A DNA stretch of 64,000 nt from Octopus vulgaris. Lineage: Eukaryota. Below, in pieces: positions 6,171 to 60,657 of this stretch. The first letter of the stretch is position 1, and every line of letters begins with the position of its first letter. Both the position numbers and the translations under genes were made by a program. Location: positions 53,072,001 to 53,136,000 of the forward strand of contig OX597815.1 in the NCBI GenBank assembly GCA_951406725.2, written 5' to 3'. The notes below the pieces were generated by a model, which was not told the origin of the DNA, did not search any database, and saw only the letters and a program-made list of their open reading frames with translations.

Positions 6171-7225
6171 TTTTTTCTCAGGCAATTCCCTCCTGGGAGC
6201 TGCAGTTAAAGTTTCATTTAAGGACTTAGTAGTGGTACTCTTATCCGCTATATCAATACTACAGTTTGTTTCACTAGAAACTGCCCCCATAGGATCTTTA
6301 TTTAAACCATTACTAATTTTATTACTAAGTTTATATCTATTATTTGTGGCTATAATTGAGACTAGATATGGAGCTGTATAAATGAATTTTTATGTCCCCT
6401 TGGGGAAAAGTCTTTCTCGACACTCTTATAAAATAATTTAGGGAGGTTCCTAATTTGGAGGGAAAAAAGCTGGATTGAGCCAAATAATATCCCGCTTCCT
6501 AGATTCCTTATAATCATTTTTATTAGTAGTAACAGTCTGCCTATAATTCGTATTTCTAAAACCATATAGTTTATGCACAAATTGCTTATTTGGGTAATTT
6601 ATCTGGCTGTTTATTACTGACTTATTCTCATTTAAGTTACCCTTTCTGAAAACTTGCTTATGTAGGAGGGCATGATTATTAAATATATCTTCATTACCAG
6701 ACAAATTTGATATTCTAATGGATACCCCAGTTATAATAGCGTTTATAACAATACCGGGATGATTTGATTTACAGTTTATATATTGTATTACCTTATTCAG
6801 CTTATGGTATGAGGAATACTAGTCATTGTTTAAACTGAGGGTAACATCTAGGAAAGTAGCTATTTTGGTAGTATTATCGGCGGTTATATTTACATTATAT
6901 TTCTTAAAAAAAAATTTGATAAAGCTTTTCTAGTTTTAACTCTATTACGTAGTGATGGATTAGGGATCACAAATAAGCCATCATCTCTATAAAGGCCTCC
7001 CTTGATAGTGGGAAAACTACTTTTTAATTTCAGAAAGTAGAAAGTGAGCCACCAAATCAGTAATCTGGGCTGAATCCGCTGACCCCATAGTTATATCGAA
7101 GTTATGCTGAGTATTACTTCGAGTCCAACCCTTCTTATTATATGCGATTAGAATTTTCCTAGCATTTAAAATTATATCCTTTTCCAAAGGGGATATTTCT
7201 TTAAATTTTTCTTTCAATTTATTGC
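6171..7225 (-). mobile_element. Penelope-like element fragment (RT C-terminal half and linker), frameshifted
   Basis: FDITMGSADSAQITDLVAHFLL, then LYRDDG (reverse complement of ~6977-6994), then RKRDIIWLNPAF, ending at the start of the GIY-YIG region. Confidence 0.9.
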
Positions 7226-14283: not shown

Positions 14284-15711
14284 TCGTCGTCCATCTGCGA
14301 CGTACTTCCGTCGTAACTGCTATCCCGTCTTTCCTCACCTGCCTTCTAAGGCCACTGGTCGACATCTTCCTCTCTCGTCGTCCACTATAATCCAGCGTTT
14401 GCAATACTTTTTTCGTCTGGCGTTAACAGCCCTTCTTATCTTGTTCTCCTTGACCTGTCTCTCACTGTTATATATTTATTTTTCCACTGTTTATATATAT
14501 ATTTTTTACTGTTTATATGTTTGTACTGTCGTTACCGTCTTGCTTTTTTTTTACCCCTCCGCGACAAGATCTCAGAATTTTAATTGATTTGCTTTTCGCG
14601 GGAAGGAATTTTTCATTCGAAGTATACGTCTCGCTTTTATCCTTCGAAACGTTTAGTAGATGAAACTTTAGCAACTGAAGAAGGGGATTTTTCGTTGTGC
14701 TTATTGTCCTGTATCTCCTTTTTTTGCTTGTCTTGTTCCTTGGTTTGTGTCTATGTTTTTCGTCTCTCTATGTGTTCGACGTCCTTTTGGTGTCCTGTAC
14801 ACATATATGCGTGTATATGTACATGTAGAGGTAGGTACGTACATATATGTTTATATATATGCATATATTTTATTAACATATTATACGACTAAACGCACGC
14901 ACCCTATTAAGTAAGATTGTTCTGTTTATCAAGTTCGCCTTGATATTAACTCTCACGCGACTCTGCATCTTTCTTTCTTTCTTTCTCTCCCATTCCATTT
15001 TTCGTCCTTTTTCCCTCACTTAACTTGTCTCTTCCTCTCTCTCTCCCCCTCACTGTTCTTCATGGTCTCCTCGCACCATTCCCCTTCTTCTCTCTCTTCC
15101 TCTTGCTCCTCCTCCCCCATTCCCGTCGTCCATCTGCGACGTACTTCCGTCGTAACTGCTATCCCGTCTTTCCTCACCTGCCTTCTAAGGCCACTGGTCG
15201 ACATCTTCCTCTCTCGTCGTCCACTATAATCCAGCGTTTGCAATACTTTTTTCGTCTGGCGTTAACAGCCCTTCTTATCTTGTTCTCCTTGACCTGTCTC
15301 TCACTGTTATATATTTATTTTTCCACTGTTTATATATATATTTTTTACTGTTTATATGTTTGTACTGTCGTTACCGTCTTGCTTTTTTTACCCCTCCGCG
15401 ACAAGATCTCAGAATTTTAATTGATTTGCTTTTCGCGGGAAGGAATTTTTCATTCGAAGTATACGTCTCGCTTTTATCCTTCGAAACGTTTAGTAGATGA
15501 AACTTTAGCTACTGAAGAAGGGGATTTTTCGTTGTGCTTATTGTCCTGTATCTCCTTTTTTTGCTTGTCTTGTTCCTTGGTTTGTGTCTATGTTTTTCGT
15601 CTCTCTATGTGTTCGACGTCCTTTTGGTGTCCTGTACACATATATGCGTGTATATGTACATGTAGAGGTAGGTACGTACATATATGTTTATATATATGCA
15701 TATATTTTATT

Positions 15712-16170: not shown

Positions 16171-16489
16171 TACATACATATATATATATACACATATATA
16201 TACACATACATATACACACACAGGTACACATATGCATACATACATAAAAGTACCCACTTTCACATAAACGTATACATAACTATGTACACACAAAACCACA
16301 TGTATAAACGTACTTTAGTACACATAAACACACATAAATGTCTGCCCGCATATATAAACGCATATGCCTATATACAGACATATGTGCATATACACATACA
16401 TACGCATATATACGCATCCATACGCCTATAAATACATACTTGCACACATGCATGCATACACGTGTACATAAAAGCATACCTACATATAC

Positions 16490-18171
16490 GGAGTCCATAG
16501 TGATAATGAGTGTTTCTTTAAAATATTCCGTTATAAGCAGTGACGTCAAAATTGGTTGAATGGAGAAGATTCTAGAAAGTTCAAGAGTTCAAAAAAGGTT
16601 GGAAGGGGAGGGTTCTAAGAATAGGAAGGTGACGGGGTGCAAGTGGTATGTATGGTGATGCGTTATTGTTTGCTTATGCTAATGAGATTGAGTGCCTATG
16701 TGTGTGTATGTATATAACTGCATTCGTGTCAATGTGTGTGCGTGATTGTGTGTGTGGGGGGATAGATGCCAAATACAACTAGTGGTGAAGTGACAGGTAT
16801 GTGTCTGTGTGTTTGATTGCGCTTACGATAGAGAGAGGGAGAGAGAGAGAGAGAGGGGGAGAGGTAGAAAGACAAAGGTAAAACATACCCCAACGAATTT
16901 GGTAGTAGTCCTTCATGAAACGGAGTATAAAAATTTGTCTATGGTGGTGTTGTAGAAGTGGAACCAAATTATTAAATTTAAGGAGGTTATCTATATTAAT
17001 CATCATTCATATGAGTTGAAGGTGTGTTTCTGCCAGTGCATGCACCTATAGGATTTTTCTACCATTGTGTTTACTAAAGGGAATTTGGCGAAAAGTATAT
17101 GGAAAAGTTCGGAATTACAGACGCCACAAAATTTTCTGCCTTTATCAAACGGAAAGGATACAGACAATATGGACCATTCCAGCTTAAAAGTTATATTACT
17201 GTCCTTAAGGCGCCAAACTAATTTACTTAGTCCTGGGCTTTGTTGTTTTCTCTTATCTCGGAAAGTTGAATAATGATTGGAAATCCTCTGGGATAATTTA
17301 GAAGTAGTCGCCCCAATGTAGAAGAAGACACCGGTACCGGAAGAAATTTTACACTGGTAAATGGAATTTCTAATTTTGGAATTGCTGGACAAGAACTTTA
17401 ATCCGAGACTAAGACGGAGTTTTTATTGTTATGATTGCTGTTAATACTATTGCTAGCACTGACCACTATATTATTCCTATTATTGTTATTATTATTAATT
17501 GTACTAACGCCGGCAATATCCCTGACTATAGAAATGCTGGGGTTGTTATCATCAATACTACCATTGTTATTAGAAATGCTGTCGTTGTTACCACTAACAC
17601 TATCACTGTTAATAATCCGACTAATATTATTATTAATATTACTATTGTTAATCCCAACGCTCCTATGAATGTTGCTATTATCAATACTATTTCTATTATT
17701 ATTATCATTGTATGTTTGGTTGGAATTGATAAGAGCAGTGTCGTGACTCCCGGGTGAAGAATCCTTACTTAGCAGCTTGTTATTATGGGAGGAAATAATT
17801 TGCGATAGATTTCTAGTGTTATAGAATGCAATCCTTACCTTATGCGAATTGATAGTAGAGTAATACCTAGAATTCCTGGGAAAGTTCCTAGCTACGGCTT
17901 CACGGAACTGTAAAGGAAGGTTTGACTTGATTTGTTTTCCGAAAGGTATGACAAACCAGATATAGTTTTTTGAGGACTTAGAATTGTTCAGAGTGTTACC
18001 ATTTACATTAAAGGGAATATTTCTGTGCTGGAATATTGGGGTTGATTGCCGATTGCCTCCCCTGGTCCGTAAATTATTTTTCTTAAGTCTAGTGGTATCG
18101 ACATTTTTAGAGCTGAAATCATTATTCTCACTATTTCTATTGTTATTAGTTTTCTTATAGTGGGCAGTCAT
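16490..18171 (-). mobile_element. Penelope-like element 3' half (linker, GIY-YIG endonuclease, 3' UTR)
   Basis: ORF 17398-18171 (YIWFVIPF...RIAFYNTRNLSQIISSHN) and ORF 17003-17392 (IYQCKI...FYIGAT...RISNH...LSKLVW...WSIL...CGVCNSE). Confidence 0.9.
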
Positions 18172-18217
18172 CTAAAAAAATTTTTGTTCGTCATGATGCT
18201 GACATAAGTTTCTTGTC

Positions 18218-18298
18218 TTTCCTGATGAGAAGGCGGCATAATGCACCCCTTATTCTCTCGGAATTAGGAATATGCAGTCTTCGAAACATATGTCGAGA
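18218..18298 (+). ncRNA. Type I hammerhead ribozyme with an extended stem II
   Basis: TTTC-CTGATGA-GAAGGC G GCATA...TATGC A GTCTTC-GAAA-CATATG-TC-GAGA: intact core, 11-bp stem II, palindromic ACATATGT, GUC triplet with predicted cleavage after 18294. Confidence 0.85.
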
Positions 18299-18494
18299 AT
18301 AAAGGAATTTTGTTAAATCGTCGTTCAACTCCATTCTTTCATTTATTTATAGTTAAAAAAAACACACAAATTTCCACACGAAAGCACATGATCTCTGCCC
18401 TTGGCATGTAGCTTCAACCGTGTTTTCTGACGTGAATTTGCTACCCAGGTATCGGTTAACCGAATTATCCATACTAAGATAATTCATTCAACTA

Positions 18495-18574
<80 letters not shown>

Positions 18575-24699: not shown

Positions 24700-26140
24700 G
24701 GTGGAACAAAAAAGGGGTTAGGGGATTAGTTTAGGAGTTATGTCCCGTGATTGGGTACGTTGTGAAGCCGGAAAGATTTATCTTGGAGTGGGGAAAGTAT
24801 ATATTATTGATGTTGTGCTCCTGTGGGGAGGGGTGTGTGGTATGTGTAGCGGTGTTATATGTATAATTTTTTTCCGGGGATGTAAGTATATATAGCTTTG
24901 TTCGCTGGTCTGTTTTTCTGTAAAGGATAAAGTTGTGTGTGGGGAGGTATATGAGCGTGCGGTGTGTAATGTGTGTGTGTGTGGGGGGTGTATATGTGGG
25001 GGTACAATTTCTGTGAAGGAGTATGTGTTGGGTGGGGAGGCAGTTAAATTTGTGTGGTGTCCGCCTTATAGAAATGTGTATGTGTACACGAATGCCTTGG
25101 TGTGTGCTTTGGTCACTCTTTTTGCTGGGCTCAAGTGCATTCGTGGAAGGTTGTTTGCGGAAGATCGAGGCAGGAGACCTGGGGTTGCAGTCATAGTGGG
25201 ACGCGCAGGTACGATAAAATGCACGCCTTTTCATGCCGGCAAATATTAAACACCTGCTATTCAGGTAAACATCCGGGCTTTGGGTACCTTTTAAAATTGC
25301 TATCTTCTCAGCCAGGCATAGTCTGCACTTCCTACTGCTATTGAAGTACAGTTTGCATCTTTCTAGGATCTTCCACCTTATGCTGTACTCCGTGGCGCTT
25401 TCTTTCAAAGTCCAGACGTGCTTGGCAAGGGTTGTGGCGTTACGTCTCTCTGGGATATTGAATGAGGACTTTTGGTTATGAGAGCGTGTTCTGAGGGGCC
25501 TTCCGTTGCCTCCACATACTTTCGCACGCTTGGTTGTCCATTGAATCTTGTTGCCGTTACTTCTTCCTCGTAAACAACTGTTTCCGTATTGCAGTGGCGT
25601 TTAGTGGACAAGTTGTATTACTTCTGCATGAGCAACCTGCCTCAGTCCCTGGTCTGGGTTTACCTAATAAATTCTTTTTTACGCTAGGTGCACAGCTAAA
25701 GGATAATCTCAGGGTATGTCTGTTAAATATTTTCTTGAATCTATTGGGAAGTGTCTATCAATTAAACTAAGGAAGATCTTACCTATTCTCGTCTTAACGT
25801 TTAAAGAGGATGGCGGTGTGAACCACAGTACTTTCCTGTGGCGTTTTCTCTGGACGTGCGAAGGTAGAGTAGGGAACGATAACGGTAGGAGAGTCTCTCG
25901 ACCAAAATGTCCACACGATGCGAGAGCACGCTTATGGCTCGATGGTTAGAATGAGTTGTATTTGTAGTCCAACGGTCCAACCTAGTCACATTCGGTGTCT
26001 CGCGATGAATCTTCCTGAGAACTGCATTAAGGGTACGCATGTTTGTGAAGTGCTCAGCCACTTGCACATTAATTTCACGAGTAAGCTGTTCCATTGATCG
26101 GTTCAGCTGGAATACTCGGCGTCATAACCGACGGAGTGTC
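24700..26140 (-). mobile_element. Penelope-like element fragment (linker and GIY-YIG, frameshifted)
   Basis: RKVLWFTPP...[14 protein letters not shown], then TVVYEEEV...KYVEATEG, then YSIRWKILERCKLYFNSSRKCRLCLAEKIAIL...YLNSR. Confidence 0.9.
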
Positions 26141-46789: not shown

Positions 46790-48103
46790 GTGAGATGTGT
46801 GGGGTGGGTGTGGATTGAGGGGGGTTTCAATGAATGAAGAAGGTGGGTAGGAGCGAAGAGAGAAAGTATGCGTCAGGGCAACAGAGGAGAGAGAAGTGGG
46901 TAATAGTGAAGAGAGGAAGTAGGTGTCAGAAGTAGAGAGGAGAGGAATGGAATCAGATGAAGAGGGCAGGGGAGCTGAACGCATGCGGTGCAAAGGAGCG
47001 AAGAGAGAAGATTAATTCCTGTTCTCGGCGAAGGCAGGAGTCTGGATGGCCCCAGACAGAGACAATCCGAACACAAACAGGTGTTGTACTGTCTGACTGG
47101 TAGAGCGGAAATGGCGCGAGACCGGGATGCTATTGCCAAGTCTAATGTCTCGTAGGTGCTCCACAAACCAGTCAACCAAGCGGTGTCCCGTTTGGCCGAT
47201 GTACAGAGAAGGGCAGAAGGAGCAGGAGATGCAGTAAATAACGTTGCTAGAAGTGTAGGTAAAGGAGTCAGTGATATAATAGGGAGGATGATGGGTGCCT
47301 GTGAGGATGGTGGTTTTGGAGAGTAGGGGCAAGTGCGACAGTGTGGGCGGGAGCAGAGGAACGAGCCAGATTGGGAGGTGGAAGCAGGGAAGAAACTGTG
47401 GACCGGGTGGTCATGTAGGTTGTAGGCTCATTTGAAGGATTGAATGGGTAGGTTGGGGAAGATGTGCGTAGTGGAGGAGTAGAACTGGAGTCGCCGGAGG
47501 GCTCGGAGAATGGTGCGCTGGAGGGGCAGAGTGGAAAGGCGGAGGTGAGGGGAAACGGGAGACGGGCAACGGCGGATCGGGTGCGAGGAGAAAGTGGAAA
47601 TGCACGGTCTACGGAACGTGCGGTGTGGGTAGTGGTGAGGGGATACCCACCAAGGATGAAGTTGCGAGCCATGAGTTGAGACTGAGTCTCAAGGTCATGG
47701 TTGTCACTGCAGAGCCTGCACAGACGGAGGAATTAGGAGTAGGGAATGGAGAGCTTGGTGTGGGTAGGGTGGGAGCAGGAGATGTTCAGGTATGAGTGTG
47801 AGTCGGTGTGTTTATAGTGGATGGAGCTAGTGAGAGCGAAGTTGTGTATGTTGATTGAAATGTCGATAAAGGCGACGGAAGTGTTGGAAATGGTGCAGCA
47901 GAATTCGAGGGCAGGATGGAAGGATTGGACAAAAGAGAGGAGGGAGTGTAGTTGTTCGCGGGAGAGTGAGGTCGCATCGATACAGTCATCAATATAACGA
48001 CCGTATGGTTCGGGAGTGGGACCACTGAATCTTGAAAATATTTGGGCTTCAACGTAACCAACGAACAGGTTTGCATAGTCAGGGCCCATTCTCGTTCCCA
48101 TGT
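46790..48103 (-). mobile_element. Neptune-type Penelope-like element, 5'-truncated (RT core and GIY-YIG with stops/frameshifts)
   Basis: MGTRMGPDYANLFVG...YGRYIDD...HYKHTDSHSYL...SHP...SIPYS; endonuclease FTYTSSNVIYCISCSFCPSLYIGQTG...EH. Confidence 0.92.
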
Positions 48104-48221
48104 AGGCGCAGGAGTGGCTGTGTGGTAAGTAGGTTGCTTACCAACCATATGGTTCCGGGTTCAGTCCCATTGTGTGGCACCTTGGGCAAGTGTTTTCTAC
48201 TATAGCCGTGGGCCGATCAAA
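48104..48221 (+). mobile_element. tRNA-derived SINE 5' head
   Basis: GGCGCAGGAGTGGCTGTGTGGTAAG (A box)...GGTTCAGTCCC (B box)...GGCACCTTGGGCAAGTG. Confidence 0.8.
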
Positions 48222-57978: not shown

Positions 57979-58555
57979 TATACATATCAGTGGCAACTCC
58001 GGCACTCGGGCTGTCCGGGTTTAGACCAAGTATAAATTTAGTATTTGCAAGCTGATTTAATTTCTACCAACACTGACTTCAAGTATGTAGTTGCAGCCAA
58101 TAACTCGGGCTCCTTTTAATGAGCCTGTGTATTTTTTCATTTTATTTTATTTATTTATAGATTTTCCAAATTGTGAATTTGCAAATATTATACTAATGTT
58201 TTTTCATGCACCACAACATTTCATCAAAAGAATTTCCTCCAAAATTGAATGTTTGGAAAGGGGGACAGTACATTTTGTATTCTAAATATAACTCAGAGGA
58301 GAAAAAGAAAGAGGGAAAAAAGAAGGAAAAGGAAAGACAGAAAGAAAGCAAAATGACTTTCAGTGATGACCATACTGCCCCCCACATTTTTTGAAGAGGT
58401 CACCATCCTTAAACCCATTCCAATACAATCGAAAAGGACTAAATAAATAATTAAATAAATAAATGGGGAATAGGAAGAGGTATATCCCTTCCCACTCACT
58501 CCCTCTAACTGTCAGTCTGACTATATATCTATCTATCAAGCAATCTATCTATCTA

Positions 58556-60657
58556 TGGGACGCGATGGCAGAATGCTCGAGAGACAAATCGCCGGGTTTG
58601 GATGGTCTGCCCTACGAGTTTTACAATTGTATGCCAGACTTGTTTGGAGACGTCTTGGCAGCAGTATACTGCAACTGGCAGCAAAACGGGAGCATACCCG
58701 GTTTTGTGAGTCGAGGAGCTGTAACACTGCTGAAGAAAGATCCAAACAAAGGGAACATTATAGATAACTTTAGACCAATCACTCTGCTCAATGCAGACCT
58801 GAAAATTTTGACAAAGGTGTTAGCCGAGAGGTTGGCACTTGTCATCGAGAAACTGGTCGACAATGCACAAACGTGCGCCGTACCGGGCCGGAGCATCCAT
58901 GACAACCTCCATCTGATGCGCTACATCATAGACAGGGTAGTTAACGAACCTGGCATGGGCGGGGCCCTGATCAACTTGGATCAATCGAAAGCCTTCGATA
59001 GGGTAGACATCGATACTTGGAGGCAGTCCTGAGAGCGGCTGGTTTCGGTCCCGTCTTCCGCGGCTGGATAGCTGCCTTGTACAGAGGCATTCGTTCGGTA
59101 ATTCGCGTAAATGGACATCTATCGAGACCTTTCGACATTACACGTTCGGTCCGTCATGGATACCTCCTCTCGGCGCTTCTATACGTATTGACTCTTGAGC
59201 CACTACTGCGGAAGCTGGCGACTCTGAGGGGCATCCCGCGAGAATTGGGATGCGGGACGAGCGTGTCTGTATACGCAGACGACGTCACCGTCATAGTGTC
59301 AAGCCACGAGCACATCGAGCGGGTCGGCGAGACACTGAAAGACTACGAAGCGGTGACAGGAGCAAAAATCAACCGGGAAAAGTCAGTGGGCTTGCGGCTC
59401 GGCACCTGGAGAAGCAAGCCCATGCCGTCCACCAGTACCTCCGTCGTGGGACGCTGGACAGACGGCCCGGTTGAGTTGCTCGGGCTCTGGTTCGGTCCGG
59501 ATCTCCAAATGGAGAAGAACTGGAACGATATAACGAATAGGGTGGTCACTCTCGGCCAGCAATGGGCCGAGAGGAAACTGTCCCTAAAAGGTCGGGCGGA
59601 GGTGGCGAACACGTACATCGCGTCCATCATCTACTATCGCCTGACCGTCGTACCTTGTCCCGACCCTACCATCACCAAACTAGAACGCATTCTCTTCCGC
59701 TTCTTGTGGAAAGGATGCGTCCCGATGGTCAGGCGATCCATTTGCTGTCAACACCCGTTAAAAGGAGGGCTGGGCATGCCGTGGTTGATGATGCGCAGAC
59801 ACGCGCTGAGACTGCGACATCTCCGGCTCTATGTAGACGACGATGAACAGGTGTGGTCGCCGTTTGTGAGGCACGCATTCCCGCAACTCGTCTCCATGAC
59901 CGAACTGCAGTCGTGGATCAAAAAGAGGCCGAGGAAGGGCGAATGGCACCGCGAGTGTCGCGTTGCTCTCAAGCAACTCTGCCGTCCCGGGTCGACCTTG
60001 AGTGACTTCAACACAACCAAAGCATTCTATAGGGGATTAGTGGAGGGGAGGTACGACGACGATCTCGGGGCAAACCTGGGCGTCGACGAGGAATACCTGA
60101 CCCGCCTGTTTCAAACGACTTTCGGCCCGGGCCCTATGGACAACTTCCAGAGATCCCTGGCCTGGCGGTGCTACCGAGAAGCGCTACCCGTTCGGGATAA
60201 GCTCTATAGGCATGGCTCGAGAAACACGGGGCCGACCTGCCCGAGATGTGGGCAGAGCGACGAAACCGCTCTGCACGCAATCGTGCAGTGTCCAGCAATT
60301 TCCGACCTGTGGGCTTATGTCGAACGACTGCTGTCACGTGTGGGACGTGTCGGTTTATCAGCCGAGTCTATCGTTAATATCGTCACGTGTCCTTCCTCCA
60401 AACGGGAAGGAAGAGCTATTTTTATCATACTTGTGGCTATGGCGAAAGAATGTATCTGGTGGGCGCGCCTGAAAGGATTAGAGACAAACACTTTCCTCTC
60501 TGGTCAATCTCTCATCAACTTCTTCAAGTATCACTTGAAGAGGAAAGTGAGAGTAGAGAGGCAAGTTTTGTCTAGTGAATGTTTAAAAAAAAGATGGGTG
60601 AATGTAGCAAGGATGGCACGTATGAATGACGAAGCCACCTTGACTATGATTCTATAA
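58556..60657 (+). pseudogene. LINE ORF2 reverse transcriptase lacking the APE domain, with one frameshift near 59010
   Basis: ORF 58463-59032 and the 546-aa ORF 59017-60657 join across a single frame change right after KAFDRVD. Confidence 0.9.

What the first reader, a model, noticed from the sequence alone, without database searches (positions are those of the whole stretch)
18201..18305. Hammerhead carrying its own antisense blockers (possible self-cleavage switch)
Seen: GACATAAGTTTC (18201-18212), just upstream, is complementary at 11 of 12 positions to GAAACATATGTC (18283-18294), which spans the GAAA core, stem III and the cleavage triplet. TTATTCTC in loop II (18250-18257) also pairs perfectly with GAGAATAA just past the cleavage site, while true stem I is only ~4 bp. 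Known: viroid and retrozyme HHRs are silenced by complementary strands in alternative folds. Inference: this pLTR RNA may toggle between active and blocked folds, or cleave only as a dimer or in a particular transcript context.
Basis: partly seen in the sequence, partly recalled or inferred. Interest (0 to 1): 0.7.

Follow-up and report, generated by a model that had tools for sequence, protein, structure and literature searches.

The report
Ordinary Penelope-like retroelement hammerhead ribozyme
This is one broken copy of a very common jumping gene that carries a predicted self-cutting RNA; the supposed built-in off switch is predicted to be one strand of that RNA's own long stem, and its unusually strong match in this copy comes from rare letter changes, so it is likely ordinary.

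Summary
Both complementarities are in the sequence as stated. They lie in a type I hammerhead in the pseudo-LTR of a 5'-truncated, inverted Penelope-like element; 3,085 places in the genome have the same core. The striking strength is nearly private. The 11/12 allele occurs in 14 copies against 1,192 with 10/12, no more often than the neighbouring C>T change (10). The 8/8 loop II match is in 1 of 123 sampled copies. Stem I is not 4 bp: the 'blocker' is the 5' strand of a predicted ~24-bp interrupted stem I, which shows two-sided changes across subfamilies and is favoured in majority-allele copies of the window's own subfamily. Five of eight related subfamilies have no blocker beyond shuffles. 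The palindromic short stem III points to the known dimer mode. A weaker 10/12 blocker is shared by three neighbouring subfamilies and is predicted to form briefly during transcription, so a lineage-limited kinetic switch is not excluded (about 12%). Cleavage was not tested.

The parts
16488..18158 (-). Inverted, 5'-truncated body of a Penelope-like element (end of RT region, Asn-rich linker, GIY-YIG endonuclease, 3' region). In an intact-order copy its end at 16488 runs straight into 18160.
   Evidence: 94-95% identity to L031, where window 16488 = L031 5036 and window 18160 = L031 5037
17401..18171 (-). Open frame of 257 codons: post-RT region and Asn-rich linker; RT catalytic core absent from this copy
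   Evidence: comparison with L031 frames
17006..17422 (-). Open frame of 139 codons with the GIY-YIG endonuclease, in another frame than the piece before it
   Evidence: Pfam GIY-YIG E=0.0021, 18.7 bits, below the 22.6 cut-off
18160..18351 (+). Pseudo-LTR part that holds the hammerhead; many copies end at 18349-18351
   Evidence: ends of alignments to 30 loci
18193..18221 (+). 5' strand of the predicted extended stem I (6+5+9+4 pairs)
   Evidence: covariation
18201..18212 (+).
18222..18228 (+). Hammerhead core CUGAUGA
   Evidence: sequence; invariant in 49 close copies
18229..18282 (+). Long stem II (54 nt): 6 pairs, G-A mismatch, 5 pairs, internal loop, terminal hairpin
18250..18257 (+).
   Evidence: 1 of 123 copies; genome pattern search
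18283..18294 (+). GAAA core, 2-pair stem III with palindromic loop (8-nt palindrome 18286-18293), GUC triplet; cleavage predicted between 18294 and 18295
   Evidence: 3,085 exact cores; palindrome kept as CACGUG in 2,680 other hammerheads
18295..18324 (+). 3' strand of the predicted extended stem I
18352..18498 (+). Optional extension ('tail'); in partial-tandem copies it leads on to the ORF start about 200 nt later. Followed here by (TA)n.
   Evidence: loci L178, L180, L182, L184, L186, L187

Best explanation
This is a broken, inverted copy of a high-copy Penelope-like retrotransposon whose pseudo-LTR carries a hammerhead ribozyme that likely cuts only as a dimer, and the 'blocker' is predicted to be the 5' strand of the ribozyme's own long stem I, not a dedicated switch. 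Shown: element anatomy, copy numbers, allele counts, the palindrome and the base-pairing potential. Inferred: in family RNA 18193-18221 pairs with 18295-18324; stem III is too short to hold alone, so two ribozymes pair through the 8-nt palindrome and swap stem I strands, perhaps helped by the element's protein. The segment also fits 18283-18294 because that target resembles its normal partner 18304-18314. In this copy one C>T change at 18211 turns a C-G pair of stem I into U-G and repairs a mismatch of the rival helix, which is predicted to shift the balance by about 6 kcal/mol towards a blocked, inactive fold: damage in a dead copy, not regulation.
For: Element. Allele counts 14 against 1,192; neighbour C>T 10, p 0.54. 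T at 18211 is absent or under 0.2% of laid depth in 4 of 4 public runs with four organism codes. Extended stem I on 38 hand-picked copies: 81.6% paired, 25 cells with two-sided change, 0 of 500 shuffles as high; blocker 74.6%, none. Upstream strand against downstream partner beats shuffles in A, B1, B2, F, G (median p 0.00-0.04); against stem III not in C, D, E1, F, G. Blocked minus free: window -3.4, another 11/12 copy -3.3, majority copies +3.1, +1.4, +1.7 kcal/mol. Upstream sequence adds no folding penalty in subfamily A (median 3.8 against 3.7, 45 copies) and none of 20 tested copies stands out from shuffles. Blocker-free subfamilies flank the blocker-bearing ones on both sides of the tree and are abundant. 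Double-hammerhead dimer is below two monomers in 6 of 7 copies. Dimer mode of PLE hammerheads: PMC4209133, PMC6765202.
Against: The 10/12 match is real in A, B1 and B2 (median p 0.02, 0.02, 0.00 against shuffles) and E2 has a shifted-register pairing (p 0.04); in B2 the blocker duplex is the stronger one in 9 of 10 copies and blocked minus free is -0.8. Prefix folding predicts 37-84% blocked just past the cut site in A/B copies, above shuffles in B1, B2, one E2 and one G copy (1-3 of 50). The target was fixed by my search pattern, so could not show two-sided changes. The number of covarying pairs for stem I is not above shuffles (350 of 500) and relatedness inflates the other measures. The extended stem I is not above shuffles in D, E1, E2. 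18 of 54 subfamily A copies have a 9-nt complement between the stem II insert and the strand after the cut. All energies are secondary-structure predictions; no cleavage was measured.
Confidence: 0.8

Rival explanations
1. Lineage-limited strand-exchange switch: in subfamilies A, B1 and B2 the upstream strand was selected to cover the dimerisation palindrome while the RNA is being made (or after cleavage), then hand over to distal stem I. This would delay dimer formation or block re-ligation.
For: 10/12 match kept in 63 of 83 sampled A/B copies, 11/12 in 6 more; 1,192 exact copies; above shuffles; predicted transient occupancy 37-84% at +4 nt, and 71-82% in the 5' cleavage product of B1/B2; low variation at 18201-18207 within A (0.012 against about 0.05 beside it).
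Against: Absent from C, D, E1, F, G; the three subfamilies are one stretch of the tree, so one event; low variation is equally explained by stem I pairing; majority A copies are not above shuffles at +4 (8 and 11 of 50) and show 5-8% in the 5' product; alleles that improve the match never spread (14 and 16 copies).
Confidence: 0.12
2. The ribozyme is held off by default and switched on by the element's own protein, as reported for the anole Poseidon element; dimer pairing and rival helices matter little.
For: PMC11167929 passages: no cleavage without protein, and no reads ending at the cut site. Copies that begin at the predicted cut are at most slightly enriched here (23 against 9 at one control position, p 0.17).
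Against: The palindrome is kept through a double change (AUAU to ACGU loop) in 2,680 hammerheads, which a monomer would not need. Not exclusive with the best explanation.
Confidence: 0.25
3. The window's three private letters arose by templated (quasi-palindrome) correction during reverse transcription, which would explain why all three improve nearby inverted matches.
For: All 3 private differences improve a complementarity and two are adjacent; inversion junctions use these short matches.
Against: Genome-wide the 18211 change is no commoner than its neighbour (14 against 10), and the other mismatch-repairing change at 18207 (16) is rarer than A>G there (32; hand count).
Confidence: 0.12
4. 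The upstream segment is a second cleavage site that makes a type III hammerhead with the same core.
For: In subfamilies C and D an upstream NUH triplet is followed by a purine run that can pair with the stem I 5' strand.
Against: The triplet is lost in A (this copy) and in a branch of C, and no stem I hairpin can form in A or B.
Confidence: 0.02

Closest known systems
Type I hammerheads in the pLTRs of metazoan Penelope-like elements (Cervera and de la Pena 2014, PMC4209133; parts 1-2 of 4 read)
   Same: Position in the pLTR, short proximal helix I (4-5 bp), larger helix II, G10.1-C11.1 pair, small palindromic helix III, thousands of mostly single truncated copies, pairs on opposite strands.
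   Different: No extra nucleotide between A9 and G10.1; stem II insert of 54 nt with inner loop and hairpin; helix I predicted to run on to about 24 pairs. Rfam does not find it.
Hydra clade of C-terminal EN+ PLEs (Craig et al. 2021, PMC8557442; passages and section 11 read)
   Same: [quoted passage not shown]
   Different: CxCX5C linker motif not seen in L031 or the window (Asn-rich linker); no RT phylogeny run, so the clade is probable only.
Viroid and plant LTR-retrozyme hammerheads blocked by a complementary strand (PMC7229834, passages)
   Same: A nearby strand can pair with the core and stem III.
   Different: There the blocked fold is the predicted state of the circular RNA; here it is favoured only in rare mutant copies and marginally in B2, and it is absent from most subfamilies. 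No circle is shown here.
Poseidon element of Anolis (PAc; PMC11167929, passages)
   Same: pLTR hammerhead near the ORF start and two preferred copy ends that define a tail.
   Different: Tail here is about 147 nt, not 30-40; protein dependence untested here.

Membership tests
Type I hammerhead ribozyme | Core CUGANGA, GAAA and NUH in type I order | tested here: met
   18222-18228, 18283-18286, GUC 18292-18294
Type I hammerhead ribozyme | Stems I and II can form and are kept across copies | tested here: met
   proximal stem I 97.4% paired; stem II 86.1% paired against 31-49% when slid
Type I hammerhead ribozyme | Match to an Rfam hammerhead model | tested here: not met
   no hit at gathering score or at E up to 10; the long stem II and 2-pair stem III are the likely reason (inference)
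Type I hammerhead ribozyme | Self-cleavage at the predicted bond | not testable with these tools
   only contigs were available; genomic truncation test inconclusive
PLE dimeric hammerheads | Short stem III with palindromic loop | tested here: met
   8-nt palindrome; kept through a double change in 2,680 related hammerheads
PLE dimeric hammerheads | [quoted passage not shown] | tested here: not met
   18229 pairs with 18282 directly after the core; the paper gives this for its minimal motifs, not for all variants
PLE dimeric hammerheads | Cleaves as dimer, not monomer | not testable with these tools
   energy estimate favours the dimer in 6 of 7 copies; no assay
Penelope-like element (EN+) | RT followed by C-terminal GIY-YIG endonuclease | tested here: met
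   L031 frames with an RT-like YRDD motif (read by eye); atlas neighbours at 0.94-0.97, some with RVT_1 on 16-48% of members; GIY-YIG below cut-off; Pfam and PDB found nothing for the RT frame
Penelope-like element (EN+) | Partial-tandem and inverted pLTRs with optional tail | tested here: met
Hydra clade | DKT motif; CxxC and CxH around E and N; (TA)n targets | tested here: met
   read by eye
Hydra clade | CxCX5C linker motif | tested here: not met
   not seen in the linker of L031 or the window; both copies are degenerate
Hydra clade | Groups with Hydra RTs in a tree | not tested
   no reference proteins fetched
Viroid/retrozyme-type blocked hammerhead | Blocked fold is the favoured state across the family | tested here: not met
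Viroid/retrozyme-type blocked hammerhead | Circular RNA form | not testable with these tools
   a circle junction equals the tandem pLTR sequence; contigs only
Non-LTR retrozyme | Short non-coding tandem repeats each with a hammerhead | tested here: not met
   single copy in the window joined to PLE coding sequence

The most novel reading that the evidence does not exclude
One strand of the pLTR RNA has two partners by design: it first covers the dimerisation palindrome as the RNA is made (and again after cleavage), then is displaced into a long stem I. That would be a timing device for dimer-dependent cleavage, gained in the A/B lineage and perhaps separately in E2, in a PLE hammerhead variant with a very long stem I and stem II.
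Probability: 0.12. Interest if true: 0.6.

Novelty: new member of a known kind. Interest (0 to 1): 0.2.

Why it matters
As it stands it is an ordinary PLE hammerhead and a caution: a single decayed repeat copy can look like a designed switch. The role of hammerheads in PLEs is still open (PMC8557442), and this family offers a natural allelic series (blocker absent, 10/12, 11/12; two palindromes) for testing how dimer cleavage is timed. If the two-partner strand were functional it would give a first mechanism for controlling PLE RNA cleavage; I saw none in the listings of six paper searches, most of whose hits I did not open.

Tried and rejected
Rfam: no hit. A minus-strand hammerhead using the blocker as its 3' core: no matching 5' core. 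An upstream type III site: not conserved. RNAalifold on 38 copies gave only two short local hairpins, neither the blocker nor the ribozyme. Expression: no RNA holder listed on record; laid runs were contigs only and cannot show ends or circles; no listed piece spans this copy's inversion junction or shows its 18256-18257 letters, which proves nothing, so an assembly error there is not excluded. Copies starting at the cut site: 30 pattern hits, 7 set aside as intact cores with point changes or a small duplication, 23 junctions against 9 at one control position, p 0.17 after correction: inconclusive; in 2 loci both arms of an inverted pair start at the cut. Lunse et al. (PMC5785218) is not held; seen only as cited in PMC6765202. 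Earlier-findings look-ups by sequence and by full word set were empty. Supplements were not read; file S2 of PMC8557442 may already show hammerheads of this shape.

Full report
Observation. The two complementarities are as described: 11 of 12 and 8 of 8. They surround a type I hammerhead core (18222-18228, 18283-18294), the only convincing one of 4 pattern hits in the window; Rfam misses it. Folding 18201-18310 gives the blocked form as minimum. For this fixed target 11/12 is unlikely by chance (p about 0.0003), but for any pair of 12-mers nearby p is 0.024, and 0.27 for 10/12. The claim that stem I is about 4 bp is wrong: with 30 nt past the cut, 18193-18221 pairs with 18295-18324 in 24 pairs broken by three loops or bulges, and the 'blocker' lies inside that helix.

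Context. The genome is a 2.8-Gb eukaryote assembly rich in microsatellites. The minus strand beside the ribozyme holds a GIY-YIG frame. Locus L031 shows the intact order: RT-like frame, linker, endonuclease, then the hammerhead pLTR in sense; window 16488 joins 18160 there, so the window copy is 5'-truncated, lacks the RT core and has its body inverted. Copies end at about 18351 or 18498 and often form inverted pairs; at least six of 15 loci that hold the ORF start have pLTR sequence in sense about 200 nt before it. This is the layout described for PLEs (PMC8557442, passages and section 11); motifs read by eye point to the Hydra clade, untested by tree.

Family test of the blocker. 3,085 places have the exact core, reversed control 0. 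The window allele is in 14 and the 10/12 allele in 1,192. The neighbouring C>T is in 10 (hand count; p 0.54), and changes at the other mismatch are 16 T, 9 C, 32 G (hand count). So the 11/12 form is background mutation, spread over subfamilies A, B1 and B2. I sampled 123 distinct cores (145 hits before removing duplicates) from the 30 best DNA matches, 3 long loci and 90 of the first 100 pattern hits, so subfamily A is over-represented. Subfamily labels are mine. 69 of 83 A/B copies reach 10 or 11 of 12; 0 of 40 C/D/E copies reach 9 although the target is the same. 47 hammerheads from two further searches (2,680 and 469 places) reach 5-8 against their own targets. The 8/8 loop II match is in 1 of 123; of 15 genome hits, 3 look in place by eye and the rest are inversion junctions. 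Against my reading, 18 of 54 A copies have a 9-nt complement there in another register; those letters are normally the arm of the stem II hairpin. The window differs from 49 close copies only at 18211, 18256, 18257, and public contigs read the family letters there almost entirely.

Which partner is conserved. On 38 hand-picked copies the blocker helix is 74.6% paired without two-sided changes, though the target was fixed by my pattern; extended stem I is 81.6% paired with 25 two-sided cells and 0 of 500 shuffles as high, but its count of covarying pairs is not above shuffles. Duplex energies against shuffles, 155 of 170 copies after dropping 15 with replaced upstream sequence: distal stem I stands out in A, B1, B2, F, G, weakly in C, not in D, E1, E2; the blocker stands out in A, B1, B2 and E2 only. 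A tree of 50 copies built without the upstream strand puts A/B between F/G and C/D/E with starred support on both sides, so the match was gained once and lost, or lost twice, in lineages that went on to amplify. The root is unknown.

Energetics. Blocked minus stem-I-formed ensemble: window -3.4, L009 (11/12) -3.3, majority A +3.1 and +1.4, B1 +1.7, B2 -0.8 kcal/mol. The upstream 40 nt add nothing to the median penalty in A or B1 and 3 kcal/mol in the window; in 20 copies (21 runs) the native upstream was never in the top fifth of shuffles. Prefix folding shows the blocker can form while the 3' strand is not yet made: 37-84% at +4 in A/B copies, gone by +20 in A and B1, 45-55% at some lengths in B2; this exceeds shuffles in B1, B2, one E2 and one G copy but not majority A, C, D, E1, F (16 copies). 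A double-hammerhead dimer lies 3.8-7.4 kcal/mol below two monomers in 6 of 7 copies and 1.4 above in one.

Mechanism. Most likely the family ribozyme is inactive alone because stem III has two pairs, and cuts when two pLTR copies pair through the palindrome, as reported for PLE hammerheads (PMC4209133, parts 1-2 of 4; PMC6765202, passages); the palindrome is kept through a double change in 2,680 relatives. Protein help is possible (PMC11167929, passages). These steps are inferred. The window copy has no partner core within the window and is predicted to misfold. The preprint 10.64898/2026.07.22.740005 (part 1 of 5) adds only that animal retrozymes derive from PLE pLTRs.

Cleavage in vivo. No raw RNA reads were available.

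Verdict. A new member of a known kind. The switch as proposed is not supported; a lineage-limited kinetic role stays at about 12%. Interest 0.2.

Noticed in passing
genome-wide, (e.g. L126, L128, L129, L134, L149, L170): Several sequence-unrelated hammerhead families in this genome share the same design: 50-65 nt stem II insert and a 6-nt palindrome in stem III. The Rfam models missed the window's example.
   Followed up: partly
L198/L199 and L209/L210 (around position 1500): Inverted pairs in which both arms begin exactly at the predicted cleavage site, 1-5 nt apart; may record copying from a cleaved RNA.
   Followed up: partly
window 18212/18290 (run X12); one search hits: Inversion junctions fall on the short complementary matches around the ribozyme, which suggests template switching at these microhomologies; one contig only for the 18212/18290 joint.
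   Followed up: no
window 17401-17700: Asn-rich linker made of (AAT)-like repeats inside the PLE frame, about 150 nt longer than in L031; the element's 3' region also carries microsatellite-like runs shared between copies.
   Followed up: no
window 24734-25600 (-), 46876-48137 (-), 6453-6818 (-): Open frames that look by eye like fragments of other Penelope-like elements.
   Followed up: no
window 58463-60654 (+): LINE-like reverse transcriptase frames, by eye.
   Followed up: no
window 14546-14845 and 15383-15682: 300-nt identical direct repeat at 837-nt spacing: recent tandem duplication or assembly artefact.
   Followed up: no
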